A stretch of DNA of 64,000 nt from Acidobacteriota bacterium (GTDB lineage Bacteria > Acidobacteriota > UBA890 > WLXD01). Under the pieces are notes generated by a model. The model did no database searches and had not been told where the DNA came from. It was given only the letters and a program-made list of their open reading frames with translations. Below, piece after piece: positions 1-17,702 of this stretch. The stretch's first letter is position 1; each line of letters begins with the position of its first letter. The stretch is taken from NCBI GenBank assembly GCA_029263335.1, contig JAJCXS010000263.1, positions 6,407 to 70,406 of the forward strand, in the 5' to 3' direction. The position numbers and the translations under genes were made by a program.

Positions 1-152
1 GAATGCCCGCACTTCTGCGATCAGGACTTCATACTCTGTATCGCCATGTGCGGAATAGCCATGGGAGATTGCGACGTGGATCCGGGCACGTGCGAGCGGT
101 CCCCGCTGGGCGTATAGCTCGCCGAACGGCCGTTGACGAACCGGAGCTAGGC

Positions 153-761
153 ATGCAAGCGGAACGCACGTCGCGAACCAGTCTCGCTGGTAGATTCCTG
201 ATCGTGAGTTCGATTGTCGTGGTCAGTGCGGTAGTGGTCGCGCTGGTCGACCAGAACCGACAACTCAAGGCCGCTCTCGGGAGTTCAGGATCGCCACAGG
301 CGCCCACGACCATCTCGTACGAGGCCGGTGACGAGCTGCCCAACATAGAGCTGGTGGGAATCACAGAGCCCGAATCGTCCGCTGGGCCACGCCTTCTGCG
401 AGATGTGGTCGGCGGAGCGGGCGTAGCGGCCTTTATGACGACGACCTGCCCGTACTGCGAGGAGGCGATTCCTAACTGGCAGCGGCTTGCGGAGGAAGTT
501 CGCGCGGATGGTTACAGGTTCGTGGCGATATCCCTCAGCATGCCAGATGTAACCGCTAGCTACGTTCGTGAACACGGCATTCGATACCCCGTTTGGGCGA
601 TCAACAGTCGATTTGCCTACGACAAGCTTCAGCTACGAGCGGTCCCGGCAACCCTATTGCTGGGCGAAGGGGCTTCCATCTTGGAGATAATGTACGGCGA
701 GCTACTCGGCGGAGACATTCGCGAACTCCGGGAGCGCCTGCTCGCAGTCGCGCCGAAGTGA
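153..761 (+). CDS. TlpA-like thiol-disulfide oxidoreductase (thioredoxin fold), membrane-anchored
   Basis: The ORF is 3..761; ATG at 153 precedes an N-terminal TM helix (FLIVSSIVVVSAVVVALV). It has a CPYC redox motif (TTTCPYCEEAIPNW). The stop overlaps the GTG start of the next gene (GTGA). The start could also be the ATG at 3. Confidence 0.65.
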   Translation: MQAERTSRTSLAGRFLIVSSIVVVSAVVVALVDQNRQLKAALGSSGSPQAPTTISYEAGDELPNIELVGITEPESSAGPRLLRDVVGGAGVAAFMTTTCPYCEEAIPNWQRLAEEVRADGYRFVAISLSMPDVTASYVREHGIRYPVWAINSRFAYDKLQLRAVPATLLLGEGASILEIMYGELLGGDIRELRERLLAVAPK

Positions 762-1906
762 GCGAGCACAGCGTCCCACTCAGCGACGGGCCGATCGGCG
801 TCAGGGTATTGGCGGCGCTGACATCAACGACCCTCCTGATGGCGGCGTGTGCGACGGGGCCGGAGATCCCGAGACCAGAGCCGCTCACTTATGAGCTGGA
901 ACGAATGTGGTCGGTTGGATGCACAGAATGCGATGGTCCTGCCCAATTCGGACGTCTAATAGACCTAGAGCTTGATCCCAGAGGTACGGTTCTCGCGTTG
1001 GACGCTAGAACTCCCTTCGTCCGTCGCATCACGGCTGATGGGAGCGCCGTTCAGGCCTTCGTTCACGATGGACAAGGCCCCGGAGAGGTCGAGTCCCCGC
1101 GGCTGGCCTTCAACACGGCCACCGGGGGGTTCGGTGTTGTTGAGTACTTTCGTCGGACGTTGCTACTCTACGATAGTAGGGGCGAGTATCTTCGGACAAT
1201 AGCTCTTGAAACTGGCCGAATCGTAACGGCCGACTACGCGCACGCGACATCGACGCTGCACGTCCTTCATGTGCCCATTCTAGAACGCGATGCGCCCTTT
1301 ATCCTGACGGCGGTCGGACTGGCACCGGGGGCCAAACCGGTTCGCGAGTTCTCGCAGTCACGTACTCGCGGAGTGGCGGCGCCAAGTTACTTCGTGTCGT
1401 TCGCGCGGGATTCAAACGGACGGGTGGCAATGGGTTTCGGGGATCGATACGAGATCATCCTCCTTGCCGCGAACGGAACGCCTGCCGGAGAGATACGGCG
1501 GTATCTCCCACGACGGCGGCGCCCAGCAGAGGAGGTCGAGCGACAGAGACGGGCAGTCGCAAGCGTCACCGGCACGTCCGGTCGGAACGTGGAGGTTGAC
1601 CTCTTCTATCGCCACTTCTATTTCGATGCGCTTGACTTCGCGTCGGACGGGAGTTTGTGGGTGCTGAGTGCCCGACGCTACGAGAACGGGACACTGTTTG
1701 ACGTCTTCGACGCAGACGGTCGGCTCTTGGGGTCGGCCGCGATCGATGGTTACGTGAAGCCCACATGTTCGTGTTTCGCTGTGGCCGGTCACCGGCTGGT
1801 GGCTGCAACGACAGGCTCGGACGGAGTTGATCGGGTTAGGGCCTGGCGAATTCCCGATTCACTGCGGTCCCGGACCCCGATCGATGCAGGGGCGAACTCT
1901 GGCTGA
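758..1906 (+). CDS. NHL-repeat 6-bladed beta-propeller lipoprotein (paralog 1)
   Basis: GTG at 758 is in frame with ORF 593..1906 and overlaps the TlpA stop. Lipoprotein-like signal (…TSTTLLMAAC). It has a CxxC (GCTECDG) and NHL-type motifs (GQGPGEVESP). The C-terminus ends VFDADGRLLGS, shared with the paralogs at 11233 and 15784. Confidence 0.55.
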   Translation: MSEHSVPLSDGPIGVRVLAALTSTTLLMAACATGPEIPRPEPLTYELERMWSVGCTECDGPAQFGRLIDLELDPRGTVLALDARTPFVRRITADGSAVQAFVHDGQGPGEVESPRLAFNTATGGFGVVEYFRRTLLLYDSRGEYLRTIALETGRIVTADYAHATSTLHVLHVPILERDAPFILTAVGLAPGAKPVREFSQSRTRGVAAPSYFVSFARDSNGRVAMGFGDRYEIILLAANGTPAGEIRRYLPRRRRPAEEVERQRRAVASVTGTSGRNVEVDLFYRHFYFDALDFASDGSLWVLSARRYENGTLFDVFDADGRLLGSAAIDGYVKPTCSCFAVAGHRLVAATTGSDGVDRVRAWRIPDSLRSRTPIDAGANSG

Positions 1907-2145
1907 GTCCGGCGACTCGCGAGTCGACTTTGGTGATGCGACTAGTATCAGTTGGTCGGTTGGATCTGATGTGCATGGAGCACGTCGAGTTCAGCGGCCG
2001 GTTCGGAGGGCGGGCTACTCGGTTCTTCTGGCACACCGCGTCGACAGCCGTGATGCGCTTCCGCGGTCGGCCGAATCTAGCACTCCGCGTCACCGCCTCA
2101 ACAGCTTTCGCACATGTGGATGCTGCACACCCAAGCGAGGATAGC

Positions 2146-2364
2146 ATGTTCAATATCAAGTACGCCGGATTGTTTATCTATTTCGGAATCGCTCTCGTGG
2201 CACTGTTCAACGCGGCGACCGCGATCAAGACTCGCTCGTGGACCGGATTCGGGCGCGACCTGCAGGGCTATCCCGCCTTGATCGCCGGTGGGGTCTTTCT
2301 ATTGGTGGGTGTGACTGCGCTAGTACAGCTTGGGCGTCTCGTACAGGTGGCGTTCACCGGCTAG
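2146..2364 (+). CDS. small hypothetical membrane protein (2 TM)
   Basis: ATG at 2146 has a GAGG 5 nt upstream. It encodes two hydrophobic helices (GLFIYFGIALVALF; LIAGGVFLLVGVTALV). It ends 7 bp before the IS end. Confidence 0.3.
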   Translation: MFNIKYAGLFIYFGIALVALFNAATAIKTRSWTGFGRDLQGYPALIAGGVFLLVGVTALVQLGRLVQVAFTG

Positions 2365-2535
2365 CTCGTTTGGGGTTACCTCACTTTGGTGGACACCTGA
2401 ACGCTTGGATCCAAGGGGCTGTGCGGATCGCGAAGCGATCTGCATGGTCACGGCAGTTTCCACCACCGTCGCCGGGTCTGATCCATGCCTCCGCTCGTAC
2501 TGGATCGGTGAGATACCGCCGAGCGCGGGGTGGCG

Positions 2536-3318
2536 TCAACGTGGGTTGTAGAAGCCTTCGATGAGCTCGAAGATCGCCATCCGCGCCTCCGCATGGGTGC
2601 GGAACGTGTTGCGCCACAGCAGCTCCGTCTCGAGCGTCGCGAAGAAGCTCTCGGCCATCGCGTTGTCGTGCGCATCGCCGACTGAGCCGATCGAGGGCCC
2701 TACGCCGAGCTGTTTGCATCGCTTCCCGAACTGGATCGAGGTGTACTGCGTTCCCTGGTCGCTGTGGTGGATCACCTGGTCGGGACGACGCTGCCAGATA
2801 GCCATGTTGAGCGCCTCGAGCAGCAACTCTGTGCGCAGGTGGTTGGCCATCGACCAACCCACCACGCGGCGGGAGTAGGCATCCAGAACGATGGCCAGGT
2901 ACAAGAACCCCGCCCAGGTTGAGACATACGTGATGTCCGAGACCCACAGCTGGTTGGCAGCCTCCGCGCGGAAGTTTCGCTTCACGAGATCCGGTACAAC
3001 CCGGGCATCATTGCCACGGCGCGTCGTCCGAGAGCGTCGCCGTCGGCTCACGCCTTCCAGTCGTGCCTGCTTCATCAGCTTCGCCACACGGCGCCGAGAG
3101 ATCCGCACTCCGGCTTCGGCCAGCTCGGCGTGCACGCGCGGAGAACCGTTCGTGACACGGCTCTCGGTGTGGATCGTCTCGATCCGGGCACGCAGGCGCG
3201 CATCTTCGCGCGCCCATGGACTCAGCGGCCGTTGGCGCCACGCGTAGTACCCGCTGGTGGAGATCTCCAGCACGCGGCACATCGTGGCAACCGGGTAGTG
3301 TACCTGGTGCTCGCTCAC
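2536..3318 (-). pseudogene. IS3 OrfB (DDE transposase), C-terminally truncated by nonsense codon
   Basis: A TGA follows …FYNPR where copy 2 reads CGA (R) and continues ~70 aa further. The DDE residues are still present. Confidence 0.5.
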
Positions 3319-3398
3319 GAACTCGAACGCTTCTTGGGCACCGAGTCCGTCTCCTGTGCGAACCAGGCCGCGGCTTTTGCGAGGATTTCTCGCTCTAC

Positions 3399-3626
3399 CT
3401 AGAGCTGACGGTTCTCTCGACGTAGGCGCCGGATTTCCTCGCGCTCCTTGGTGCTCAGCCTCTCAGCTGTGTGCCCATCGTCGCGGTCCGCCTGCTTGAT
3501 CCACTGATGGATCGTCCAGTACGACGGCTCGAACTCCTGAGCCAGTTCGTAGGCGCTGCGGCCGGCTCTCGCCAGCTCGATGATCTGTTGCCGATATTCC
3601 GGCGGATACGGTTTCGTTCTTGCCAT
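3399..3626 (-). pseudogene. IS3 OrfA (HTH), prematurely terminated
   Basis: The start MARTKPYPPEYRQQ has a GGAGG 9 nt upstream. It ends …RRENRQL at TAG where copy 2 reads AAG (K) and continues ~33 aa further. The track ORF 3399..3740 over-extends 5' past the IS end. Confidence 0.5.
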
Positions 3627-3697
3627 GGTGGACATCCTCCACCCCAAGCTCGAGACCGTCCACGTAACCGAGGCAACTCCACCCTTGGAGATGGATT

Positions 3698-3744
3698 GGA
3701 GTTTGACTCGGCTATGTGCAGCTCCGCATAGCCGAGTCAACTCC
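3698..3744. repeat. stem-loop (18-bp arms, 10-nt loop) 17 bp outside the IS right end
   Basis: Arms are GGAGTTTGACTCGGCTATG and CATAGCCGAGTCAACTCC. The arm sequence resembles the IS terminal IR (GGAGTTGCCTCGG…). Confidence 0.5.
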
Positions 3745-3825
3745 AGGGGTTCTCCATGGCTGCACCCTACCAGCGTCTCGGTTGAGCTGATAGGACCCGA
3801 GACAGGAGTTGCAGCCGGGCAGCGC

Positions 3826-4086
3826 CTAGATCGCGAACCGACACGCCTTCACTGTCACATGGTTTGGCGCGCTGTCGTACCATTGCGAGCACGTATCGCC
3901 GCTGGTCGAGCAGCTTTGCGCCGGGCCGCCACACGAGAGGATGTAGCCTGGACAATCTACTTCACAATTACCGCCCTGCGCCTGAGCCGTTGGCGCCGAG
4001 AGGAGCACGAAGCTGCTCGCAACAAGACAAAGACACGCGATCGGTACGTATAGCGCCTCGCGGAAACGGGTGCGTAATCGGTTCAT
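3826..4086 (-). CDS. small cysteine-rich secreted protein (86 aa precursor, ~49 aa mature, 6 Cys)
   Basis: It has a signal peptide (MNRLRTRFREALYVPIACLCLVASSFVLLSAPTAQAQ/G). The mature part is GGNCEVDCPGYILSCGGPAQSCSTSGDTCSQWYDSAPNHVTVKACRFAI. GAGG lies 7 nt upstream of the ATG. It sits between the two IS copies. Confidence 0.45.
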   Translation of the reverse strand: MNRLRTRFREALYVPIACLCLVASSFVLLSAPTAQAQGGNCEVDCPGYILSCGGPAQSCSTSGDTCSQWYDSAPNHVTVKACRFAI

Positions 4087-4139
4087 TTCGGGACCCTCAA
4101 TGTTGGGGCGGGCGTGTCAGTTCACATGATCCCCACCGC

Positions 4140-4176
4140 CTGCCGGGACAATATGGACACCAGGTTAGCCCGGCAG
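4140..4176. promoter_or_regulatory. 8-bp inverted repeat (CTGCCGGG…CCCGGCAG) upstream of the small Cys-rich peptide gene
   Basis: A perfect 8-bp IR with a 21-nt spacer lies ~55-90 bp upstream of the minus-strand start at 4086. Confidence 0.3.
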
Positions 4177-4504
4177 ACAGCGTCGCCGCGCGTCGTCGCG
4201 GAAGAGATTCGCGACACTATTCGACACCCCGCGCAGAAGCCCGCAGTAGCGTCCGCGACGTGGCGCGTGAAGGAGTAGTAGGGGGGCATTGGGAACTCGT
4301 GTGAGACGCGGAGCGTTTTTCACAGTTTCCGCGTTGGGCGGCATGTTTGAAGAAAGATGGCCACTGATCCAGTCTTGGGTGGCACCAGAGGATCTTCTGA
4401 CAAGCATAACGACCACTGACCAAGCCCAAGATGCTCGCTACCAAGTGGGCTCGTAGAGGCTGGCGGAACACGGAGGCCAGCTCCGCGAGGAGTAGCAACT
4501 GGAG

Positions 4505-5503
4505 TTACCTCACTTTGGTGGACACCTGAACGCTTGGAGTTTGGGTACTCGTAGTAGTAGTGAAGTGGGAACTCGTGGGAGCCGCAGGGCGGCTTCCAAG
4601 GGGCTGTGCGGATCGCGCAGCGATCTGCATGGTCACGGCAGTTTCCACGTCCGTGACCGGCTCTGATCCATGCCTCCGTTCGTACTGGATCGGGGAGATG
4701 CCGCCGAGCGCGGAGTGGCGTCGACGTGGGTTGTAGAAGCCTTCGATGAACTCGAAGATCGCCATCCGCGCCTCCGCATGGGTGCGGAACGTGTTGCGCC
4801 ACAGCAGTTCTGTCTCCAACGTTGCGAAGAAGCTCTCGGCCATGGCGTTGTCGTAGGCATCGCCGACGGAGCCCGTCGAGGGACGCACCCCGAGCTGCTT
4901 GCATCGCTTCCCGAACTGGATCGATGTGTATTGCGTTCCCTGATCGGAGTGATGGATTACGTCCCCCGGCTGCCTTTGCCAGATGGCCATGTTGAGCGCC
5001 TCGAGCACCAACTCTGTGCGCAGATGGTTAGCCATCGACCAACCGACCACGCGGCGGGAGTACGCATCCAGAACGATGGCCAGGTACAAGAACCCCGCCC
5101 AGGTTGAGACATAAGTGATGTCCGAGACCCACAGCTGGTTGGCAACCTCCGCGCGGAAGTTCCGTTTCACGAGGTCCGGTACAACCTGGGCATCATTGCC
5201 GCGGCGCGTCGTCCGAGAGCGTCGCCGTCGGCTCACCCCTTCCAGTCGTGCCTGCTTCATCAGCCTTGCCACACGGCGCCGAGAGATCCGCACTCCGCCC
5301 TCGGCCAGCTCGGCGTGCACGCGCGGAGAGCCGTACGTGCCACGGCTCTCGGTGTGGATCGTCTCGATCCGGGCACGCAAGCGCGCATCTTCGCGCGCTC
5401 GTCGGCTCAGCGGCCGTTGGCGCCACGCGTAGTACCCGCTGGTGGAGATCTCCAGCACGCGGCACATCGTGGCAACCGGGTAGTGGACCTGGTGTTCGCT
5501 CAC
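4505..5503 (-). CDS. IS3 OrfB (DDE transposase/integrase), full-length frame
   Basis: 332 aa with the integrase core motifs. In the intact element it would be expressed as an OrfAB fusion by -1 frameshift, but orfA in this copy has a nonsense codon. Confidence 0.55.
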   Translation of the reverse strand: MSEHQVHYPVATMCRVLEISTSGYYAWRQRPLSRRAREDARLRARIETIHTESRGTYGSPRVHAELAEGGVRISRRRVARLMKQARLEGVSRRRRSRTTRRGNDAQVVPDLVKRNFRAEVANQLWVSDITYVSTWAGFLYLAIVLDAYSRRVVGWSMANHLRTELVLEALNMAIWQRQPGDVIHHSDQGTQYTSIQFGKRCKQLGVRPSTGSVGDAYDNAMAESFFATLETELLWRNTFRTHAEARMAIFEFIEGFYNPRRRHSALGGISPIQYERRHGSEPVTDVETAVTMQIAARSAQPLGSRPAAPTSSHFTTTTSTQTPSVQVSTKVR

Positions 5504-5811
5504 GAACTCGAACCCTTCTTGGGCACCGAGTCGGTCTCCTGTGCGAACCAGGCCGCGGCTTTTGCGAGGATCTCTCGCTCGACCTTGAGTTGACGGTTCT
5601 CTCGACGCAGGCGCCGGAGTTCCTCGCGCTCCTTGGTGCTCAGCCCCTCAGCTGTGTGCCCGTCGTCGCGGTCCGCCTGCTTGACCCATTGATGGATCGT
5701 CCAGTACGACGGTTCGAACTCCTGGGACAGTTCGTAGGCGCTGCGGCCGGCCCTCGCCAGCTCGATGATCTGTTGCCGATACTACGGCGGATACGGTTTC
5801 GTTCTTGCCAT
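5501..5811 (-). pseudogene. IS3 OrfA with nonsense codon at codon 10
   Basis: It reads MARTKPYPP then TAG (5782-5784), where copy 1 has GAA (E). Otherwise the frame is full length, ending …KKGSSS*. Confidence 0.5.
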
Positions 5812-5866
5812 GGTGGACATCCTCCACCCCAAGCTCTAGACCGTCCACGTAACTGAGGCAACTCCA

Positions 5867-6553
5867 GCCTATGGCTTTGGCGACCTCGAGGGGGCTGCGG
5901 AGGGGTTCGGCCGCGCGGCCGAGGCAGCGCCGACGGTGGGGGACCCATTCTTTGGGTTGGCGTTGACCTACGAGGCGCTCGGAGAATGGGAGGACGCTGC
6001 GGTTGCCTACGAGTCCGCGCTCTGGTCGCGGCCAGGTTCGCCGGTCTTCCATGCAGGCTTGGGCGCTGCTCTTCAGCACTCCGGAGACACGGCCCGGGCC
6101 GCCTTGCACCTGGTGCGTGCGATCCGAGGGGGGATGTCGGGGGAGCAACTACGCGTAGGGCCGTTGGATGCCGTGGCCTCCACCGAGCAATCCCGGCGGC
6201 TGGCCGGCGTTCCGGTGCTTCACTGGCGGAGACCCAACGTGGCTAGCCTTGAATCGCAGGTAGCAGTTCGTGGAGCGGTTCTCGCCATAGGTCGGTTGCT
6301 GGACACTTCGCCGGAAGTGGTGCTGACGGAATGGCCAATCCAGGGCGTCCGGTCGCTGCACCTGCGCGTTGAATCTGTCGACGGAGCCGGGAATCGTGCC
6401 GAGACGGAACTCGAGCTGTACGACGTGACCGGCAAGCGTGTCGCGACTTGGCCGGTGCAGTTTGATGACCTGCGGGATGCAGATGAGGTGGCGCGTCTGG
6501 CGCGGGACGTGGTGACACGACTCCTTCGGCACGTGTCCGACGGAGAGTTGTGA
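5867..6553 (+). pseudogene. 3' fragment of a vWA-TPR family gene (paralog of 13683..15728), 5' end cut by IS copy 2
   Basis: The frame is open from the IS boundary, with no start. TPR-like repeats and a C-terminal region align with the C-terminus of the 681-aa protein (…DADEVARLARDVV… vs …NLDEVADELEASF…). Confidence 0.5.
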
Positions 6554-6557
6554 TCAA

Positions 6558-7095
6558 TTGTCCACCTTCGGATACCGCGAACGGGTACTGTGCCTGACGA
6601 CGGCTGATCGGGCTCGGCGTCGGTTCTCAGTCCGTTTAACGCCGCGCACCCCTCGAGCCTTCATTCTAGGGCTCTTCTTTGCCGTCACATCTTTCGTGGC
6701 CTGGCCGCAGGAGCGCCAGGGACCATTTCGTTCGACCGCGGGGGCCGTGACCATCGGCGTAGGCGTTGTTGATGGAGACGGCCGACTCGTGGCCGGCCCG
6801 GGCCCTGACAGCTTCTCCGTCCGTGTCGGAGGATCGCTCCGAGAGATCATCGACGTTCGCGAGATCGGCACCCCGCGCACGAGCGACGAGGTGGGGCGGG
6901 ACTTTGTCCTTCTGTTCGACCTCTGGACAGGGTTCCCGCGTCGTGGAAGAACGATCTCGCGACTCGTATCTGGTCACTTTTGCCACGGTTCCCGGCGACT
7001 CCGGGCTGCTGGCTGTCGATGTCCAGGTGAACGGTCCGGGCGTGAGCTTGTCGTGGGCCCCGCTGGAGATCTCAGTCCTGGCCCCGACTCGTTGA
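6558..7095 (+). pseudogene. frameshifted N-terminal fragment of an FRS-module/vWA family gene
   Basis: It begins with a signal-like segment, then QGPFRSTAGAVTIGVGVVDGDGRLVAGPGPDSFSVRVGG (the same module as in 8850..11048 and 13683..15728), then FVLLFDL. The frame breaks after that; a second frame continues to 7095. Confidence 0.4.
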
Positions 7096-7216
7096 CCCAT
7101 CGCAAGATCTTGCTTCGTCGAGCTCGCCCCAGAGCCGTACTAGAACGCGCGTGGACTGCTGTAACTGGCTGATCGGCACGGGCTCTACGTGGGAGTAGCG
7201 TCGCGCACGGCCCCGC

Positions 7217-7738
7217 TCAGTGCTGCTCGGGCGTAAACAGGACCTCGAAACTGTCGATGAGGCGGCCCTCGTCGTCGGAGCCGGCCGTGATCGCCATCAA
7301 CTCGCCAGCGTCCGTCAGGCGGTATGTGATTCGGCGCGGGGAGTCTTGGTCGGGAACGTCGCTGTGGAAGACGGCTTCGCGATCGGATGCACTTAGCAGC
7401 GTGAACTCGAGCGGCCGATCTTCTTCCCAGGTCGAGTAGTCAGGTCGGAAGTGCTTGAAACGCATCACCACGCGCTCCGCCTCCTGGGAGATCATCAAGT
7501 ACTCGACGAGAGAAACCCCATCGTCTTGAACAAGCCGGAAGATGCCCAGCATCGTTCCTCCGGCTGCCGGAGTCCAATGCTCCTCAAAGCTCCCCCCGAG
7601 ACCCTTGCCGTACCAGGAGCCGGCAAGCCAGTCGACGTCGCTGAGAACGGGCGTTGGTGTACCCATGCCGAGGCTGTACGCAGGGCAGGTGAGGAGGGCT
7701 GCAAGGGCGATGATCGCGGTTGCCGTCTTTCCGTACAT
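7217..7738 (-). CDS. secreted hypothetical protein
   Basis: Signal peptide (MYGKTATAIIALAALLTCPAYS). No recognised catalytic motifs. Confidence 0.4.
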   Translation of the reverse strand: MYGKTATAIIALAALLTCPAYSLGMGTPTPVLSDVDWLAGSWYGKGLGGSFEEHWTPAAGGTMLGIFRLVQDDGVSLVEYLMISQEAERVVMRFKHFRPDYSTWEEDRPLEFTLLSASDREAVFHSDVPDQDSPRRITYRLTDAGELMAITAGSDDEGRLIDSFEVLFTPEQH

Positions 7739-7768
7739 GGCCGTCTCCTGAAGGGTCGGCGGCGAGGG

Positions 7769-8152
7769 TCAGCCCTGCTGTGAGAGGTCCTGGTAGAACA
7801 TGAGCTTGTTGCCGTCCAGGTCGTAGAAGGTCGCGAGTCGAACCATGCCCGGAATGGTTAGCGTGTCGCCGTCGAACGCGATGCCGCGTGCCTCGAGCGT
7901 CGTTCGTGCAGCGTCGACGTCGGACACGCCAAAGGTCAGAGTGGCGCCACCTTGTACGGCCGGCTGTTCGACCTGCGAGAGACCGACGCTGACCTTCTCC
8001 ACAGGGGAGCGCAGCTCGCACCAGCCGATATCGTCGACGCGAAAGAGAGGCTCGAAGCCCAGCGTGTCTTTGTACCAGGCGATGGCACGGTCGAGATCGC
8101 TGCACTCGAGGGCGCACGTGAGTCCGCCGTCGAAACTGATGTCGGTGGTCAT
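7769..8152 (-). CDS. VOC-family (glyoxalase/bleomycin-resistance fold) protein
   Basis: Start MTTDISF has AAGGAA upstream. The VOC-like sequence includes LECSDLDRAIAWYKDTLGFEP…FYDLDGNKLMF. Confidence 0.6.
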   Translation of the reverse strand: MTTDISFDGGLTCALECSDLDRAIAWYKDTLGFEPLFRVDDIGWCELRSPVEKVSVGLSQVEQPAVQGGATLTFGVSDVDAARTTLEARGIAFDGDTLTIPGMVRLATFYDLDGNKLMFYQDLSQQG

Positions 8153-8198
8153 GGGTCTGAGTTCCTTTTGGAGAGGTGCGGAGATTTGACGACTGAAA

Positions 8199-8215
8199 GT
8201 ATAGTACCTATACTT
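8199..8215. promoter_or_regulatory. palindrome AGTATAG-TAC-CTATACT in divergent VOC/HxlR intergenic region
   Basis: A perfect 7-bp inverted repeat with a 3-bp spacer lies between the divergent starts. It is a likely operator for the HxlR-type regulator. Confidence 0.4.
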
Positions 8216-8217
8216 GC

Positions 8218-8802
8218 GTGTCAATGATGGCGAACGACCTTCCCCCCACATCTGCCAGCGGCTTACCGATGCTCTTCAAACATCGGTGGACGATCCCCGT
8301 TCTGGCGGCTCTCGATGAGCTCGACGGTGGTGCGAAGTTCGTCACGTTGCAGAGGCGGCTCGGAGTAAGTCGTGACTCACTGCAACGAACGCTGACCACC
8401 CTGGTTGATACGGGACTGGTGGGCCGCAATCCGGGCTACGGACATCCGATGAGGCCCGAATACACGCTGACGACACGGGGATCCCGGCTGGCACCAGCAT
8501 GCGCTGCTCTCCTAGAAGGGCTCCGCGACCTGGGTGTCGAGGACATCGGCCTCAGGAAATGGTCCCTGCCGCTGACCTACTCGCTGGCGCAGGGGTCCGG
8601 ACGCTTCAACCGATTGTGCGACGATCTAGACGTGACCCCTCGGGCCCTGGCGCAGGCACTCAAAGAGCTGCAGCACGCCGGCCTCGTCGAGCGCCTACTG
8701 GTAGAAGACAGCCCGCCGCGGACGGAATACCGTCTCACGGGCAAGGGAAAGCGCCTGACGCCGCTGATATCCGCCTTGGCGCGCGAGTACATCGCGACCT
8801 GA
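8218..8802 (+). CDS. HxlR-family winged-helix transcriptional regulator (tandem duplicated domain)
   Basis: Two HxlR-like wHTH units (…RWTIPVLAALDE…EYTLT…; …RFNRLCDDLDVTPRALAQALKELQHAGLVERLL…EYRLTGKG). It is divergent from the VOC gene. Confidence 0.6.
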   Translation: MSMMANDLPPTSASGLPMLFKHRWTIPVLAALDELDGGAKFVTLQRRLGVSRDSLQRTLTTLVDTGLVGRNPGYGHPMRPEYTLTTRGSRLAPACAALLEGLRDLGVEDIGLRKWSLPLTYSLAQGSGRFNRLCDDLDVTPRALAQALKELQHAGLVERLLVEDSPPRTEYRLTGKGKRLTPLISALAREYIAT

Positions 8803-8849
8803 CTCAACTGTCGCCACCCAAGCGATTCTGCGCGAGAGCACCGAGTCCA

Positions 8850-11048
8850 TCACTGGCCCTGGACCCATACCGGCAGCTCCGCAGTTGCCCGCGTGCCCGC
8901 CACGAGATCGTGGACGGTCATCTGGATCGTGTGGAATGACGAGGTCAGCGTGTGGGGCAGTTCGACGCCTGCTAGCACCTGGATGGCGCCGGTGGCCGGG
9001 TCGCGGTCTTGCTCGATCACCCGTGCGCGTTCTACCGCCACCACGTTGCCCGTGGGGTCGAGTAGTCTGATCTTGACCTCCCAGGTTGGCTGCAGCGTAG
9101 ATGGGTTGAGGGCGAATCCGTGCATCTGGGAGTAGAACTGCACGACGTCTCCCGGGGCCGCCGTGGCGATCGCCGCCGGGGTGAGCTCGAAGTCGCCGAG
9201 CGCGAAGGGGAACGCCACCGGGCCGTCTTTCTTGTGCTCCGGAGGGTTGTCTGGGTCGAAGCCTCGAAGCATGAGACCGGGGTGCTGCCAGTCGATCGCC
9301 ACCGGCCCGTCGATGAATAGCCCTGCACGTGACCGGTGCGGCACGGGCACATCGTCGGTGCGCGCGCTGATCAGGCCGACCTCCGCATCGCGGATAATCG
9401 TGCGCACCTGGTTGAGCCCGGGACCCGACCACATCAGGTTGTAGTAGTGGAAGGGCAGCCCCGCGCTGCTGCTGTTTCGCATTCGCGCGAGATCGAGGAT
9501 CACCTGGCCGTCCGCCAAGTCCATCATCGTGCCCGAGCTGTTTAGCAGGTAGCTGAACATCTCGAGCTCGACCGTGTCATCGTTGCCGGCCCCCGCTAGC
9601 GCTTCGAGTTGTTCCCATGGCACCTCCACGATCACCGCCACTCGGCTGATGTCGTTCTCGCCCGCGAACGGGGTCACGGCGGTCTCGAACGCCAGTGAGC
9701 TATCCACCAACCCCTTGCTGATGAACTCGGCTAGCTGCGCCTGTTGCTGCATGGGCGACATGGTCTCGAACTTGCCCGGCACGGTCAGCCGCGAAGCGGC
9801 CGAGGTCACGACCGCGGCGTCGCGCCGGACGCTAACGTCGATGTCGAAGCTATCCGGGTCCTCGGGGCGGCGGGGTACGGCCAGCACGTAGTAATTGCGG
9901 GCAGCACGCTCGATGTCGCTCAGCCCGCTCACGATCTTGTTGGTGTTCCAGACGACCGAGCCACCGGTCCCATCGGCCCATATCGTCAGCGAGTTTCGTC
10001 CTGACCTGGTCCTTGCGCCCAGGAGCGAGGGCCTGAAGTTCCCCGGGTCACTGCCCCGGTCGCGTCCACCGGCGAGGCCTGACACGTCGATCATATGCAG
10101 CAATGCGTCCGCTTCCCTCAGGTCCCCGACGGCATCGTCGATCGCGTCGCGCACGTCGGCGCTGCCAAAGCGCTCCTCCGACCCAATCGAAGCGAGGCCT
10201 TCGCCAGGGTTCGTCTGGATCCGATTGGAATCGGCCGCTAGCTCATCGAGAGACTTGCCCACGAGCACTCGGTCCTCGAACCCCTCGGTGAAGAACAGCA
10301 CATGCTTGCGCCCGCGGATGACTTGCATCAGTTCGCCTAGCTGTTGGAGCTGGCTCGCGTAGCGAGCGACGAAGTTGGTGTATTGGGCGAACTCGGACCG
10401 TTTCACCATTCCTATGATCTCCTCGATCGCAACATCGGCCTCGGTCTTGCCACCCGAGGCATCGCCCGCCCCGGCCGCCCCCTCCATAAGATCGGCGATG
10501 AAGCCGGCGCGGTCGATGTTGCGAGTGGCCTGGGTCAGTCCGAGCCCGTCGATCGCGGTCCGGATCTGCACGCGGTCGCGCGTCAGGGGCACGATCGTGC
10601 GAACACCTTCGACCACGTTGTAGGTGACGACACTGACGAGGTCCTCGGGCAGCACGCTCTCGTCGAGAAACGCCAACGCGGCCTTGCGCGCCTCGAGAAC
10701 ACCGCGCGGGGAGTTGAACGCGGCATCGAACAGCATGACCCACTGACGCCAGGCCGCCGCGGGCAACGAGGAGTAGGGGAGCGGCCCGCCGTCCCTGGTG
10801 CCCCGGGGCGCGCGATTGACCTCGTAGGCGAGGACAAGCTCCCGCGGCTCACCGTCGACCCGAACCTCGAAGTCCTGAGTCACCAGCCCGGGAACGAACA
10901 GGCCTTCGTCGTCGGCTACGTTCACCTGAAACTGGATCAGTTCCACGTTGCTGCGGAACTGTGGCCGGGGCAGCGACTGTGCCCATCCGACCGTCTTCGG
11001 GAGGCATGCCAGCAACACTAGAACCGTAACTCGCGCGCGCCAGGCCAT
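8850..11048 (-). CDS. exported vWA-domain protein with conserved N-terminal 'FRS' module (resembles the VWFA-related Acidobacterial domain family)
   Basis: Signal peptide (MAWRARVTVLVLLACLPKTVGWAQS). The N-terminal module is PQFRSNVELIQFQVNVADDEGLFVPGLVTQDFEVRVDGEPREL. A vWA core (VMLFDAAFNS…) follows, then a long C-terminal region. Confidence 0.65.
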   Translation of the reverse strand: MAWRARVTVLVLLACLPKTVGWAQSLPRPQFRSNVELIQFQVNVADDEGLFVPGLVTQDFEVRVDGEPRELVLAYEVNRAPRGTRDGGPLPYSSLPAAAWRQWVMLFDAAFNSPRGVLEARKAALAFLDESVLPEDLVSVVTYNVVEGVRTIVPLTRDRVQIRTAIDGLGLTQATRNIDRAGFIADLMEGAAGAGDASGGKTEADVAIEEIIGMVKRSEFAQYTNFVARYASQLQQLGELMQVIRGRKHVLFFTEGFEDRVLVGKSLDELAADSNRIQTNPGEGLASIGSEERFGSADVRDAIDDAVGDLREADALLHMIDVSGLAGGRDRGSDPGNFRPSLLGARTRSGRNSLTIWADGTGGSVVWNTNKIVSGLSDIERAARNYYVLAVPRRPEDPDSFDIDVSVRRDAAVVTSAASRLTVPGKFETMSPMQQQAQLAEFISKGLVDSSLAFETAVTPFAGENDISRVAVIVEVPWEQLEALAGAGNDDTVELEMFSYLLNSSGTMMDLADGQVILDLARMRNSSSAGLPFHYYNLMWSGPGLNQVRTIIRDAEVGLISARTDDVPVPHRSRAGLFIDGPVAIDWQHPGLMLRGFDPDNPPEHKKDGPVAFPFALGDFELTPAAIATAAPGDVVQFYSQMHGFALNPSTLQPTWEVKIRLLDPTGNVVAVERARVIEQDRDPATGAIQVLAGVELPHTLTSSFHTIQMTVHDLVAGTRATAELPVWVQGQ

Positions 11049-11104
11049 GTGCGTTCCGCTCCTCAGGGGACGAGGTGGATCGTATTCGTCGCGAGTGAAC
11101 TCAA

Positions 11105-11130
11105 CAACAGGAACCCGGTGATTCCCTGTT
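11105..11130. promoter_or_regulatory. inverted repeat AACAGG-N14-CCTGTT in divergent promoter region
   Basis: It lies between the divergent vWA gene (8850..11048) and NHL gene (11233..12597). Confidence 0.25.
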
Positions 11131-11232
11131 TTACGGGATGCGCGGCCCCGTGTCGTAGATTTCCTCCTGATGCGGTCTTACTAGGCAGGACGCGGACCGA
11201 GGCTGACGGTCGTCCCTACGCAGGAGGGCGAG

Positions 11233-12597
11233 ATGAGTTCACGAGACAGGTGGGGGGGGCTTTGTCGCGGGCGGCGGCTCGTCCGGATGAACGCACTTGC
11301 CGTTGCCGCCCTGGCAGCCTCGGCATGTTGGGCTCCGGAGTCAGGGACAAGCGTGAGCGGTCCGGGCAGCTGGCGCGGCGAAATCCTGTCGGGCGAGGTG
11401 ACAACCGTACGTACCTTGGATGGTCTCGCCTGGGACGTGCCATACAGCCTTGACCTCTCGTTCAGCCTGGGTGCGGAAGAAGGCGCCGATGGCCCACTCT
11501 TCGGGGCACTGGGCGGGGTGGCCGTTGGTGAATCCAGAATCTACGCCGTCGATAACGAAGCCCAGGTGGTCAGGGTCTACGACCTTGGCGGAAGGTACGT
11601 GGGCGATATCGGCGGACCCGGCGAAGGACCCGGAGAGTTTCGATATCCGAAAGGAGTGGGGCTCACCGCCGATGGACGTCTGCTCGTTCAGGACAATTCA
11701 GCCCGAGAGATCCACGTGTTCGATGCGAGCGGGCAGTTCCTCGAATCGTGGCGCCGGCCGCTCATCACCAAGATCTGGGACGACCGGTTCCTCGTGACTC
11801 CCGAGGGGAAGGCCTTCATCTGGGAACTCCAGAACCCGGGCGAGGCCGACAGTGACGACTGGGCGATGACGCGGTATGGCCAGGACGGGCTCGAGGATCT
11901 GACCATCGCGACGCCCGCCTTTGGAGAGAACGAGGATTATGTGCGCTGGGGGCTCGGATGGGACGCTGGCGCAGCTGCTGAGCCGTTCGCCATGATCCGA
12001 CAGTGGGCGATGACTCCTGATGGAACGCTGGTGGTGGCGCCCGCTGATGAGTACCAGCTGGAAATCCGTCCTCTCGGCGGGGCTGCCTGGCACATAGAGC
12101 GCGCTGTTGATCGTGTCGCTGTGCAGCCAGGGGAGTTCGAATGGGCAGTCCGCAACATCGTTCTCGCGGCGCGCGCGCAAAGCCCGGGATGGGAGTGGAC
12201 CGGCTCGACATCGCCGGATACCAAGCCCTTCGTGAAGAGGGTGTACTGGGGCGGGAGCGGAACGCTCTGGGTTCTTCGCGAGCTGGAGGCTACGAGGGTT
12301 GCGGGCTGTGCGACCGCTTCCGAGGACCTGACCCAACGACTCGAACGACCGTGCTGGAAAGCGAACCAGGTATTCGAGGTCTTCGATGCCGACGGCCGTC
12401 TGGCGACGGTTGTCCCGTACACCGGCAGGATCCACCAGTTCGTGCCCCCGGTGATCTCGGACGACGCGGTCCTGATGGCAGAGGAAGACGCGAACGGGAA
12501 CGCGATCCTGTCGTGGTATCGCCTGGTGCCGGGACCGGGTGATGAGGGTCCCGCTCGGCGTTACGAGCGGCTAGACGGCGGTTCGGGGATCAGGTGA
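11233..12597 (+). CDS. NHL-repeat 6-bladed beta-propeller lipoprotein (paralog 2)
   Basis: AGGAGG lies 5 nt upstream of the ATG. Signal/lipobox (…LAVAALAASAC). NHL motifs (GGPGEGPGEFRYPKGVGLTADGRLLVQDNSAREIHVFD). The C-terminus carries a …RPCW…VFDADGRL motif. Confidence 0.6.
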   Translation: MSSRDRWGGLCRGRRLVRMNALAVAALAASACWAPESGTSVSGPGSWRGEILSGEVTTVRTLDGLAWDVPYSLDLSFSLGAEEGADGPLFGALGGVAVGESRIYAVDNEAQVVRVYDLGGRYVGDIGGPGEGPGEFRYPKGVGLTADGRLLVQDNSAREIHVFDASGQFLESWRRPLITKIWDDRFLVTPEGKAFIWELQNPGEADSDDWAMTRYGQDGLEDLTIATPAFGENEDYVRWGLGWDAGAAAEPFAMIRQWAMTPDGTLVVAPADEYQLEIRPLGGAAWHIERAVDRVAVQPGEFEWAVRNIVLAARAQSPGWEWTGSTSPDTKPFVKRVYWGGSGTLWVLRELEATRVAGCATASEDLTQRLERPCWKANQVFEVFDADGRLATVVPYTGRIHQFVPPVISDDAVLMAEEDANGNAILSWYRLVPGPGDEGPARRYERLDGGSGIR

Positions 12598-13257
12598 CGG
12601 CCGTCGGGCTGCCGCACTCGTCAGGTGGAGCATGCGGACGAGGCCGGCGAACACCCACGAGCCGACGATGCTCTGGACGAGAACGAGTGCCACATAAACG
12701 TACGCTGGCGCCGACGGTGCCCCGGGACTTTGGAGCGCAGCGTAGAGAGCCACGCACGAGATCGTGACCGAGCTGACGAGCAGGTAGGCAGGGTAGATGT
12801 CGCGCAGCTCCCATCCAAGGCCTCGCCGGCGGAGGATCACTGGCCCGAAGGCCATCATCGCCAGCAGCGGGAGCGTCTGTAAGTGGCCGTTCGTGGTGAG
12901 CTTGGCAACGATGATTATGGCGAGCCCGCCAGCCAAGCCGAGGGCGCATTCTGCGCGGAGGAGAGTCTTCTTTGTCGAGTCCATTGGTAGCTCCGAGTTG
13001 AGTGAGCCGCAAGCATCGCGCCAGGTTGCCCCCTCCCGCGCGGCGCGATGCTGGGCGCGTAGAAGGTCGAGGTCGCCCAGCTCTAGCTTGGCGACCTTTC
13101 TCGCGTTGTCCGGGGCCATTCCCGCGGCACGCTTGTCAGCGGTCAGTTCCCGGAGGTGCGTTCGCAGTTCCGCTTCGAAGTCGCGGTCAAGCTGCACGCG
13201 GTTGAGCCGGCACCATATCTGATGGCCCAGGCGTCGAAAGGCCAGCCAGCTCATCAC
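12571..13257 (-). CDS. PadR-associated membrane protein (permease-prefix-like N-terminal domain + 4 TM, no FtsX domain)
   Basis: The N-terminus (LAFRRLGHQIW…DFEAELRTHLRELTADKRAAGMAPDNARKVAKLELGD) resembles the prefix region of Acidobacterial PadR-linked permeases. Four TM helices follow. It overlaps the PadR gene by 4 bp. Confidence 0.5.
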   Translation of the reverse strand: MMSWLAFRRLGHQIWCRLNRVQLDRDFEAELRTHLRELTADKRAAGMAPDNARKVAKLELGDLDLLRAQHRAAREGATWRDACGSLNSELPMDSTKKTLLRAECALGLAGGLAIIIVAKLTTNGHLQTLPLLAMMAFGPVILRRRGLGWELRDIYPAYLLVSSVTISCVALYAALQSPGAPSAPAYVYVALVLVQSIVGSWVFAGLVRMLHLTSAAARRPSPDPRTAV

Positions 13258-13592
13258 TGACTTCCAGCCGGGACGAGCGCTGTTTGCATGATCGCCGCAA
13301 GGCGCTGCCAGGCATCTGTCTCGCGTGCCAACTGCCTGCTTCCCGGGCCAGTGATCAGGTAGAACTTAGCGCGGCGATTGTTGTCGGAAAGCCCCCACTC
13401 GGAACGAATCCAGCCATTCTGTTGGAGGCGCACGAGCGAGGCGTACACGGTGCCGGGGTTTAGCGAGAGCTGATGGGAACTCATCTCCTCCAGCAGCTTC
13501 CCAATGCCATATCCGTGCATGCGGCCCTGTGCTGCCAGCGTCTGCAGTACGAGGAGATCGAGGGTGCCGGGCAGTAGGTCGAGCTTGTCCAT
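13254..13592 (-). CDS. PadR-family transcriptional regulator
   Basis: MHGYGIGKLLEE…LNPGTVYASLVRLQQNGWIRSEWG…NNRRAKFYLITGPG is a canonical PadR wHTH. Confidence 0.8.
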   Translation of the reverse strand: MDKLDLLPGTLDLLVLQTLAAQGRMHGYGIGKLLEEMSSHQLSLNPGTVYASLVRLQQNGWIRSEWGLSDNNRRAKFYLITGPGSRQLARETDAWQRLAAIMQTALVPAGSQ

Positions 13593-13682
13593 AGCGCCTC
13601 CATTGGTTGGGCCAAAGGTACAGCTACGACCTCTCTTTGGTCAAGCCAAAGATAGGGGATACGGAAATCTGCTGATCCGGGT

Positions 13683-15728: not shown

Positions 15729-15783
15729 CAGATTACTCAGTTTGCGCGAAGGACCCTCCCACGGCGAGAAGCCGCGGCCATCC

Positions 15784-17348: not shown

Positions 17349-17702
17349 GTGAAGAACCAACGTGGCACGGATAAGGTCGTTCTCGAGGACTTGGGAACCC
17401 GGATAGCCCGGCATCGCCTCAATCGCGACTGGACGCAGCGACGGCTGGGCGACGAAGCCGGCGTGTCGTTGCCGACCGTTTCGCGGCTCGAGCGGGGCGA
17501 GTCGACGAGTTTGGTGAACCTCGTCCGTGTGTTGCGCGCGCTAGGTCTGCTGGACAATGTCGCCGATCTGGTTCCGGACATTCCTTTGAGTCCAGTGCAG
17601 CAACTTCGCAGCAGCCGGCCGACGAAGCAGCGTGCGTCGCGGCGACGGCAACCCGACAAGGTCACTCGGCCGCGCCCCTGGCAATGGGGTGACTCACAAT
17701 GA
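17349..17702 (+). CDS. hipB: HipB-like XRE-family HTH antitoxin
   Basis: HTH_XRE (…RLGDEAGVSLPTVSRLERGE…). Its stop overlaps the hipA start (ATGA). It is preceded by an AT-rich region. Confidence 0.6.
   Translation: MKNQRGTDKVVLEDLGTRIARHRLNRDWTQRRLGDEAGVSLPTVSRLERGESTSLVNLVRVLRALGLLDNVADLVPDIPLSPVQQLRSSRPTKQRASRRRQPDKVTRPRPWQWGDSQ

What the first reader, a model, noticed from the sequence alone, without database searches (positions are those of the whole stretch)
3826..4086. Small secreted cysteine-rich protein (6 Cys in ~49-aa mature peptide) in IS-flanked cargo position
The precursor has a signal peptide (cleavage after AQA) and a compact mature domain with a CxxxC…C…C…C…C pattern (NCEVDCPGYILSCGGPAQSCSTSGDTCSQWYD…KAC). 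This suggests a disulfide-knotted peptide such as a bacteriocin-like toxin, signalling peptide or protease inhibitor. It has its own RBS and an upstream 8-bp IR. It belongs to no family I recognise. Its location between IS copies in an accessory region is typical of mobile cargo.
Basis: partly seen in the sequence, partly recalled or inferred. Interest (0 to 1): 0.5.

Follow-up and report, generated by a model that had tools for sequence, protein, structure and literature searches.

The report
Orphan small cysteine-rich exported-peptide ORF
An 86-codon reading frame between two insertion sequences would encode an exported 50-residue peptide with six cysteines, but it has no detectable relative in any database searched, so whether it is a real gene remains close to a coin toss.

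Summary
An 86-aa ORF lies at 3826..4086 on the minus strand. Its N-terminus looks like a Sec signal peptide: four Arg, a 21-residue hydrophobic core, then P-T-A-Q-A|Q. The 50-aa acidic tail carries six Cys spaced 3, 6, 6, 6 and 15 residues apart. The ORF sits in an 818-bp scrap between two IS3-family copies that are 92% identical.

A signal-like N-terminus plus a Cys-rich tail is rare in chance ORFs. It occurred in 1 of about 103,000 simulated ORFs, and in the window only this ORF has both.

Nothing else supports a gene. No homologue turned up in any protein, genome, metagenome, virus, plasmid, Pfam, NCBIfam or PDB search. The other five frames of the segment have none either. Codon usage falls in the low tail of real genes. 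AlphaFold gives no confident fold. The 8-bp inverted repeat is at chance level, and SD-like motifs precede few ORFs in this window. No target-site duplications support the "mobile cargo" idea.

The peptide fails the cysteine motifs of defensins, knottins, Kazal and EGF domains. No bacteriocin partner genes are nearby.

My estimate:
- about 0.45: real, or recently real, orphan exported disulfide peptide;
- about 0.40: chance ORF;
- about 0.15: truncated relic.

Interest is low to moderate.

The parts
3826..4086 (-). Orphan ORF, 86 codons plus a TAG stop. ATG start at 4086..4084.
   Evidence: It is the best-scoring of the six frames in the inter-IS segment, at -0.004 bits/codon and GC3 0.68.
3979..4086 (-). 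Predicted Sec signal peptide, residues 1-36. The n-region is MNRLRTRFRE (net +3). The h-region is ALYVPIACLCLVASSFVLLSA (21 aa, uncharged). The c-region is PTAQA, with A-x-A at positions -3/-1.
   Evidence: Read directly from the sequence and passed by my heuristic. AlphaFold2 predicts a helix over residues 4-29 at pLDDT 66-79. No lipobox and no Tat motif. SignalP was not available.
3829..3978 (-). Predicted mature peptide of 50 aa and 5.19 kDa, pI 4.66, with six Cys spaced 3, 6, 6, 6 and 15 residues apart.
   Evidence: Three equal consecutive spacings have P of about 0.013 by chance. No DNA tandem repeat lies underneath. No confident fold was predicted: pLDDT 44.
4094..4098 (-). SD-like GAGGG, 7 nt upstream of the ATG.
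   Evidence: Weak evidence, because SD-like motifs precede only 16% of likely real ORFs in this window against 10% of shadow ORFs.
4140..4176 (.). Inverted repeat CTGCCGGG(21 nt)CCCGGCAG, 54-90 nt upstream of the ATG.
   Evidence: At chance level, P of about 0.2. No sigma-70-like promoter was found in 3600..4600.
3697..3745 (.). A 49-bp palindrome made of two arms that resemble the IS3-type terminal repeat. It lies about 80 nt downstream of the ORF stop and 15 bp from the IS1 end. It could form a 19-20-bp hairpin in the transcript, but no U-tract follows.
   Evidence: Each arm matches IRR at 16/19 positions. Rfam returned only sub-threshold miRNA-hairpin matches.
2371..3681 (-). IS3-family copy 1. 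It has TG...CA ends, OrfA (HTH_Tnp_1) and OrfB (rve, 260 aa). It lacks 56 bp near its left end relative to copy 2.
4500..5866 (-). IS3-family copy 2. OrfB is 332 aa and scores 362 bits against NCBIfam transpos_IS3.
   Evidence: The same IS2/TPR junction is present in Logan contig SRR15505518_27941.
3682..4499 (.). The 818-bp inter-IS segment that carries the ORF. It has no protein-level homologue in any of the six frames.

Best explanation
The ORF is a genuine, or only recently inactivated, strain-specific orphan gene for a small exported disulfide-rich peptide.

Inferred mechanism:
1. The 86-aa precursor is targeted to the Sec translocon by its positively charged n-region and hydrophobic core.
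2. Signal peptidase I cleaves after A34-Q35-A36. This releases a 50-residue, 5.2-kDa, acidic peptide whose N-terminal Gln may cyclise.
3. The six Cys are oxidised to three disulfides in the oxidising periplasm. This gives a compact, protease-stable mini-protein that stays in the periplasm or is released.

The 21-residue core is long enough that it could instead remain as an uncleaved N-in membrane anchor. In either case the Cys-rich part faces outward.

The biochemical role is not determinable from the sequence. The acidic charge and the lack of partner genes argue against a classical cationic or ABC-exported bacteriocin. Only the sequence features are shown. Export, cleavage, disulfide formation and expression are all inferred.
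For: - The signal-peptide architecture sits exactly at the first start codon, an ATG, 11 codons after the upstream in-frame stop. Its c-region, PTAQA|Q, resembles those of clearly exported proteins in the same window, for example ...PSATA|QE at 55544..57826.
- There is an even number of Cys (six) in 50 residues, with a regular C-x6-C-x6-C-x6-C spacing. This spacing has P of about 0.013 by chance and is not caused by a DNA repeat.
- The signal-like N-terminus plus Cys-rich tail occurred in 1 of about 103,000 simulated spurious ORFs. It is the only such ORF among 400 in the window.
- This frame has the highest GC3 and the best codon score of the six frames in the segment.
- The neighbouring propeller-like ORF 593..1906 scores just as poorly (-0.005 bits/codon). 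It has weak but repeated similarity to a DUF5128 paralogue. Low codon scores therefore do not exclude real genes in this accessory region.
- A ResA/TlpA-like thiol-disulfide oxidoreductase is encoded at 3..761. The organism therefore has extracytoplasmic thiol-redox machinery.
Against: - No homologue was found anywhere. The word-index search of 5.8 billion clusters was empty. Exhaustive phmmer against 1.84 billion representatives gave 0 hits at E<=1e-3. The GTDB species genomes gave only a chance 15-residue match inside a low-complexity protein. JGI metagenomes, IMG/VR and plasmids were empty.
- No gene with this exact product is on record in any assembly, although a contig identical over the 200 bp compared is in Logan run SRR15505518.
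- The codon score is at the 2.6th percentile of likely real genes and within the top 28-34% of shadow ORFs. CAI is at the 10th percentile. Rare codons are frequent: TTA, CTA, GTA x2, CTT x2, CCA x3 and six of eight Cys as TGT.
- No promoter-like site was found.
- AlphaFold2 gave no confident fold. This is a single-sequence run and so uninformative.
- The ORF lies in IS-scrambled DNA.
- The ORF was selected for exactly the features used in my statistics. Across a whole genome, about 0.4 such chance ORFs are expected.
Confidence: 0.45

Rival explanations
1. This is a chance ORF in non-coding, IS-scrambled scrap DNA. In a genome of about 62% GC, long stop-free frames are abundant. One of them happens to begin with a hydrophobic stretch and to be rich in TGT/TGC codons. 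Nothing is made from it.
For: - There are 400 ORFs of at least 60 aa in 64 kb. Several overlapping ORFs of 83-157 aa lie in the same 818-bp segment, including a codon-aligned antisense ORF at 3580..4053.
- Nothing is conserved in any frame.
- The codon score is typical of the upper third of shadow ORFs.
- No gene with this product has been called in any assembly on record.
- No promoter-like site was found, and the inverted repeat is at chance level.
- Cys-rich shadow ORFs do occur in this window: 38217..38600 has 15 Cys in 127 aa.
- About 0.4 such signal-plus-Cys ORFs are expected by chance per 5-Mb genome. The finding was picked for these very traits.
Against: - The joint rate is only about 1e-5 per spurious ORF, or about 0.005 per window.
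- The start is an ATG preceded by GAGGG at the correct spacing.
- The Cys count is even and the spacing is regular.
- This is the best coding frame locally.
Confidence: 0.4
2. This is a relic or 5' fragment of a formerly larger or formerly functional exported-protein gene. The gene was cut or stranded by IS-mediated rearrangement, and the present stop was created by the junction. The signal peptide and the first Cys-rich module survive, but the gene is no longer functional.
For: - The segment is bounded by two IS3 copies without target duplications.
- An IS-end palindrome lies about 80 nt past the stop.
- A patch at 4275..4322 resembles the IS2 left-end region.
- The adjacent TPR gene is demonstrably 5'-truncated at the IS2 end, and its missing part is absent.
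- Together these show that rearrangement and deletion took place here.
Against: - A fragment of a larger family should still hit its intact relatives, and none was found.
- The ORF stop at 3826 is 80 nt away from the nearest recognisable IS-derived sequence.
- The peptide carries an even number of Cys, which suggests a complete unit.
Confidence: 0.15

Closest known systems
Bacterial cis-defensins (CS-alpha-beta peptides such as xanthusin-1 and AdDLP-type myxobacterial peptides; PMC11561630)
   Same: Both are small precursors of fewer than 130 aa with an N-terminal signal peptide and a mature domain of about 40-50 residues holding six Cys for three disulfides. Both are found sporadically in a few bacterial lineages. 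One bacterial defensin was reported from Acidobacteria.
   Different: The defining CS-alpha-beta / CSH cysteine framework (C...CxxxC...GxC...CxC) is absent. Here CxxxC joins Cys1 and Cys2, and there is no GxC gamma-core and no terminal CxC. There is no sequence or profile similarity. No fold could be predicted.
Sec-dependent (signal-peptide-bearing) class II bacteriocins and disulfide-rich bacteriocins such as laterosporulin (from general knowledge)
   Same: Both are ribosomal, small and exported. The size is similar, at about 50 aa with six Cys in laterosporulin.
   Different: No immunity, ABC-transporter or accessory gene is adjacent, because both neighbours are IS elements. The mature peptide is anionic (pI 4.7), not cationic. 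There is no sequence similarity.
Knottin / inhibitor-cystine-knot and Kazal-type small protease inhibitors
   Same: Both have six Cys in a domain of about 50 residues and an extracytoplasmic location.
   Different: The loop lengths 3, 6, 6, 6 and 15 do not fit simplified knottin or Kazal spacing patterns. There are no Pfam hits, even at E<=1.
Composite transposons (two IS copies mobilising the DNA between them)
   Same: The ORF lies between two same-orientation IS3-family copies 818 bp apart.
   Different: The copies are only about 92% identical. One carries a 56-bp deletion and a shortened OrfB. There are no matching target-site duplications at the outer or inner ends, and the adjacent host gene is truncated. 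This looks like rearrangement debris rather than a mobilisable unit.

Membership tests
Sec (type I) signal peptide | A positively charged n-region, an uncharged hydrophobic h-region, and small residues at positions -3/-1 (A-x-A) with a helix breaker before them. | tested here: met
   MNRLRTRFRE (net +3), a 21-aa uncharged core, then P-T-A-Q-A|Q. This rests on a heuristic only, because SignalP and DeepTMHMM were not available. The long core leaves an uncleaved signal-anchor possible.
Lipoprotein (type II) or Tat signal | A lipobox [LVI][ASTVI][GAS]C, or a twin-arginine motif RRxFL. | tested here: not met
   The regular-expression tests were negative.
Bacterial cis-defensins / CS-alpha-beta | The cysteine framework C...CxxxC...GxC...CxC (Zhu-type pattern; CSH motif and gamma-core, PMC11561630). 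| tested here: not met
   The pattern is absent. No profile hit was found.
Bacterial cis-defensins / CS-alpha-beta | A helix packed on a two- or three-stranded sheet by three disulfides. | tested here: inconclusive
   AlphaFold2 single-sequence models gave pLDDT 44-53, with no reliable secondary structure in the mature part.
Knottin / Kazal / EGF / beta-defensin | Family-specific Cys spacing signatures. | tested here: not met
   All simplified signature patterns were negative. Pfam returned 0 families at E<=1.
Bacteriocin locus | An adjacent immunity, export or maturation gene, or a double-glycine leader. | tested here: not met
   The neighbours are IS3 OrfA/OrfB on both sides. No other frame of the 818-bp segment has any homologue. 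There is no GG leader.
Composite transposon cargo | Two IS copies flanking the segment. | tested here: met
   IS3-family copies lie at 2371..3681 and 4500..5866, in the same orientation.
Composite transposon cargo | Near-identical functional IS copies, and a target-site duplication at the outer ends of the unit. | tested here: not met
   The copies are about 92% identical with a 56-bp indel. The flanks are GTT|IS1|CCC and AAC|IS2|GCC, so no duplication is present. The adjacent TPR gene is truncated.
Real protein-coding gene (generic) | Conservation in relatives under purifying selection. | tested here: not met
   No homologue was found in any collection. Sensitivity is limited to roughly 40-45% identity or more for an 86-aa query against 2.4e11 residues. 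That limit is my estimate. It is based on the need for about 54 bits to reach E=1e-3.
Real protein-coding gene (generic) | Host-like codon usage. | tested here: inconclusive
   The codon score is -0.004 bits/codon, at the 2.6th percentile of likely real genes and within the top 28-34% of shadow ORFs. CAI is 0.60 against 0.66 +/- 0.05 for real genes and 0.54 +/- 0.09 for shadow ORFs.
Real protein-coding gene (generic) | Transcription and translation. | not testable with these tools
   No expression data are accessible. No sigma-70-like promoter was found.

The most novel reading that the evidence does not exclude
The ORF is expressed and founds a previously unseen family of bacterial exported mini-proteins with a heptad-spaced cysteine ladder (C-x6-C-x6-C-x6-C). 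The fold or metal- or target-binding mode would be unrelated to defensins, knottins or known bacteriocins. It would be carried in an IS-rich accessory patch of a probable Acidobacteriota-like chromosome.
Probability: 0.12. Interest if true: 0.5.

Novelty: new member of a known kind. Interest (0 to 1): 0.25.

Why it matters
If real, this would be a singleton example of a bacterial Sec-exported, three-disulfide mini-protein with no family. It would come from a lineage probably related to Acidobacteriota, where such peptides are hardly described. Such scaffolds interest people working on peptide natural products and stable mini-protein design.

If it is a chance ORF, it is a useful caution. In high-GC genomes, a signal-peptide-like and cysteine-rich frame arises by chance about once every couple of genomes. 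Intrinsic features alone should therefore not be taken as proof of a gene.

Either way the locus does not bear on any long-standing open question.

Tried and rejected
**Homology searches.** All were empty:
- Pfam, NCBIfam, PHROGs and PADLOC.
- The word-index protein search.
- Exhaustive phmmer against 1.84 billion representatives.
- Plasmid blastn and tblastn.
- IMG/VR and JGI metagenomes.

**GTDB genomes.** The single hit was a 15-residue identity (SAPTSQAQGGNCEV) inside a 665-aa low-complexity Pseudomonadales protein. I rejected it as chance.

**PDB.** The best match was HIV gp120 (GG-LE...NCGGEFFYCNTSG...W), at E=4e-4 only because that chain holds two copies of the matched stretch. The per-domain i-E-values were 13-21, so I rejected it as chance.

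**Relic of another gene on another frame.** I concatenated the translations of the other frames of 3682..4499 and searched them. Nothing scored E<=1.

**Continuation of the truncated TPR gene into the segment.** None of the three plus-strand frames at 4499 is TPR-like.

**RNA gene.** Rfam gave nothing at gathering thresholds. Only sub-threshold miRNA-hairpin matches to the palindrome appeared. No tRNA was found.

**Paralogues in the window.** None by tblastn.

**Recovering the segment from assemblies of the same strain.** Exact-product look-ups failed for the ORF, the overlapping 146-aa ORF, OrfA, both OrfBs and the left-flank ORF. Only the right-flank contig was found, and it ends inside IS2.

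**Structure.** Two AlphaFold2 single-sequence runs gave pLDDT 53 and 44. I did not run fold searches, because they would be meaningless on such models.

**Tandem DNA repeat as the cause of the regular Cys spacing.** None was found.

**Literature.** A look-up of the SRA run accessions returned nothing.

Full report
**What is there**

The window holds an ATG-initiated ORF of 86 codons on the minus strand at 3826..4086. It translates to:

MNRLRTRFREALYVPIACLCLVASSFVLLSAPTAQAQGGNCEVDCPGYILSCGGPAQSCSTSGDTCSQWYDSAPNHVTVKACRFAI

- The gene is on the minus strand.
- Cleavage after A34-Q35-A36 leaves 50 residues, not 49.
- The mature-part cysteines are at residues 41, 45, 52, 59, 66 and 82, giving C-x3-C-x6-C-x6-C-x6-C-x15-C.

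The N-terminus has four Arg (net +3), then a 21-residue uncharged hydrophobic core, then P-T-A-Q-A. This is the textbook arrangement for a signal peptidase I substrate. There is no lipobox and no twin-arginine motif.

The predicted mature peptide is 5.19 kDa and acidic, with pI 4.66 and net charge about -2.

A GAGGG lies 7 nt upstream of the ATG. An 8-bp perfect inverted repeat (CTGCCGGG/CCCGGCAG) lies 54-90 nt upstream.

**Surroundings**

The ORF lies in an 818-bp segment (3682..4499) between two IS3-family insertion sequences, both on the minus strand:

| Copy | Coordinates | Notes |
|---|---|---|
| IS1 | 2371..3681 | Lacks 56 bp near its left end; OrfB is 260 aa |
| IS2 | 4500..5866 | OrfB is 332 aa; NCBIfam transpos_IS3, 362 bits |

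Both have TG...CA ends, an OrfA with HTH_Tnp_1 and an OrfB with an rve domain. They are about 92% identical.

The evidence points to rearrangement rather than a composite transposon:
- Neither copy, nor the pair, is bracketed by a target-site duplication. The flanks are GTT|IS1|CCC and AAC|IS2|GCC.
- The TPR gene to the right of IS2 (5936..6553) is open in frame right up to the IS2 end. It is therefore 5'-truncated.
- Its missing part is not on the other side of either IS.

The segment also holds a 49-bp palindrome at 3697..3745. Its two arms match the IS right terminal repeat at 16 of 19 positions. There is also a 41-48-bp patch about 75-78% identical to the left-end region of IS2.

The region therefore reads as debris from repeated IS activity and IS-mediated deletion. 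"Cargo" is not the right word for the ORF's position.

The window itself is chromosomal. It carries ftsZ, ftsA, murC and murG at 35-42 kb. It also carries families typical of Acidobacteriota-like genomes: TIGR03436 VWA proteins, PadR with permease-prefix proteins, and DUF5128 propellers.

**Is it more than chance?**

ORF length carries no information. The 64-kb window has 400 ORFs of at least 60 aa. The 818-bp segment alone has several of 83-157 aa, including one exactly codon-aligned on the opposite strand (3580..4053).

The 8-bp inverted repeat is expected by chance about one time in five in the 413-bp upstream region. SD-like motifs precede only 16% of likely real ORFs here against 10% of shadow ORFs. 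No sigma-70-like promoter was found.

What is unusual is the conjunction of a signal-peptide-like N-terminus with a tail of at least 10% Cys:

| Test set | ORFs with both features |
|---|---|
| Second-order Markov sequence | 0 of 25,277 |
| Shadow frames of 15 Mb of synthetic coding sequence | 1 of 77,697 |
| ORFs of at least 60 aa in the window | 1 of 400 (the candidate) |

In the window, 16 ORFs pass the signal test and 3 pass the Cys test. About nine of the 16 are evident real exported or membrane proteins.

The implied chance rate is about 1e-5 per ORF. That is roughly 0.005 per window, but about 0.4 per 5-Mb genome. Since the ORF was picked for these very traits, the rate matters.

One further post-hoc oddity is the three equal Cys-Cys spacings. 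Given six Cys in 50 residues this has P of about 0.013. No DNA tandem repeat lies underneath.

**Evidence against a gene**

No homologue was found in any search:
- Pfam, NCBIfam, PHROGs and PADLOC.
- The 5.8-billion-cluster word-index search.
- Exhaustive phmmer against 1.84 billion representatives, with 0 hits at E<=1e-3.
- GTDB species genomes, where the one match is a chance 15-residue identity in a low-complexity protein.
- JGI metagenomes, IMG/VR and plasmids.
- PDB, where the only matches are chance similarity to gp120.

One caveat applies. An 86-aa query against 2.4e11 residues needs about 54 bits for E=1e-3. By my estimate, relatives below about 40-45% identity would therefore be missed.

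The other frames of the segment are equally orphan. The ORF is thus not the shadow of a recognisable gene.

The exact product is not on record in any assembly. Yet a contig identical over the 200 bp compared, including the IS2/TPR junction, exists in Logan run SRR15505518. That contig stops inside IS2, so whether the segment was assembled there is unknown.

Codon usage is poor:
- The score is -0.004 bits/codon. That is the 2.6th percentile of 38 likely real genes and within the top 28-34% of shadow ORFs.
- CAI is 0.60, against 0.66 for real genes and 0.54 for shadow ORFs.
- Rare codons are common, and six of eight Cys are TGT.

Two points soften this. This is still the best of the six local frames. 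The neighbouring propeller-like ORF 593..1906, which has weak paralogue similarity, scores the same.

AlphaFold2 without an alignment gave pLDDT 53 for the full-length protein, with only the N-terminal helix above 65. It gave 44 for the mature part. This neither supports nor refutes a fold, and I did not run fold searches on such models.

**Weighing**

I set prior odds of about 2:1 for a real gene. These compare roughly one real small exported Cys-rich gene per genome (my guess) with about 0.4 chance look-alikes per genome. I then adjusted them:
- down for the lack of any homologue;
- down for atypical codon usage;
- slightly up for the ATG plus GAGGG;
- slightly up for the regular Cys ladder.

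The result is close to even. I commit to these estimates:

| Explanation | Probability |
|---|---|
| Real, or very recently real, orphan gene for a Sec-exported three-disulfide mini-protein | about 0.45 |
| Chance ORF | about 0.40 |
| Stranded fragment of a former larger gene | about 0.15 |

**Mechanism if real (all steps inferred)**

1. The precursor is targeted to Sec.
2. Signal peptidase I cleaves after AQA. Alternatively the long core stays as an N-in anchor.
3. The six Cys are oxidised in the periplasm. A ResA/TlpA-like oxidoreductase is encoded 3 kb away at 3..761.
4. The outcome is a stable acidic 5-kDa peptide.

Its role is unknown. The acidic charge, the absence of partner genes and the failed motif tests make a classical bacteriocin or a defensin-type, knottin-type or Kazal-type molecule unlikely as a family assignment. 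A binding or inhibitory mini-protein remains possible.

**Comparison with known systems**

The closest known kind is the bacterial cis-defensins and other small signal-peptide-bearing disulfide peptides (PMC11561630). The shared features are precursor size, a signal peptide and six Cys. The defining framework CxxxC...GxC...CxC is tested and not met. The ORF is therefore not a member.

It is also not demonstrably composite-transposon cargo.

**Verdict**

The architecture, the lack of any family and the IS flanks hold up. The proposed function, the fold and the cargo reading do not.
- If real, this is a new singleton member of the known kind "small exported cysteine-rich bacterial peptides".
- Interest is low to moderate (0.25). 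Nothing beyond intrinsic sequence features supports it, and a specialist would not be surprised either way.

Noticed in passing
window 3697..3745: A 49-bp near-perfect palindrome lies here. Its two arms (CATAGCCGAGTCAACTCCA) match the right terminal inverted repeat of the flanking IS3-family elements at 16 of 19 positions. It looks like an IR-IR fusion or a minimal MITE-like relic. It sits 15 bp from the IS1 end.
   Followed up: partly
window 2371..3681 and 4500..5866, with flanks: The two IS3 copies are about 92% identical. IS1 lacks 56 bp near its left end and has a shortened OrfB (260 against 332 aa). Neither copy has a target-site duplication. This suggests recombination or deletion after insertion.
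   Followed up: partly
window 5867..6553: The TPR-repeat gene is open in frame right up to the IS2 end, so it is 5'-truncated by the IS. The missing N-terminal part is not found on the other side of IS2 or IS1. The same junction is present in Logan contig SRR15505518_27941.
   Followed up: yes
window 4275..4322: A short patch here is 75-78% identical to IS2 positions 4551..4598. That is the stretch which IS1 lacks. It may be a trace of a third, degraded IS copy.
   Followed up: no
window 3..17142: This stretch is a cluster of paralogous families. It holds a ResA/TlpA-like thiol-disulfide oxidoreductase (3..761). It has three DUF5128/NHL-like six-bladed propellers (593..1906 weak, 11233..12597, 15784..17142). 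It has two TIGR03436 'acidobact_VWFA' proteins (8850..11048, 13683..15728). PadR/HxlR regulators and a permease-prefix protein are also present. This hints at an Acidobacteriota-like source.
   Followed up: partly
window 17699..18991: A HipA-family kinase toxin gene, with Couple_hipA and HipA_C domains (E=7.5e-53). It is presumably part of a toxin-antitoxin pair.
   Followed up: no
window 38217..38600 (-) and 54621..54839 (+): Two other ORFs have at least 9% Cys: 15 Cys in 127 aa and 7 Cys in 72 aa. The first lies in an alternative frame overlapping longer ORFs in the cell-division cluster. The second also overlaps longer ORFs. Neither has a signal-like N-terminus. They show that Cys-richness alone arises in spurious frames of this genome.
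   Followed up: partly
window 3580..4053 (+): A 157-aa ORF lies exactly codon-aligned antisense to the candidate. It starts inside IS1. It has a lower GC3 (0.59) and a lower codon score than the candidate, and no homologue.
   Followed up: yes
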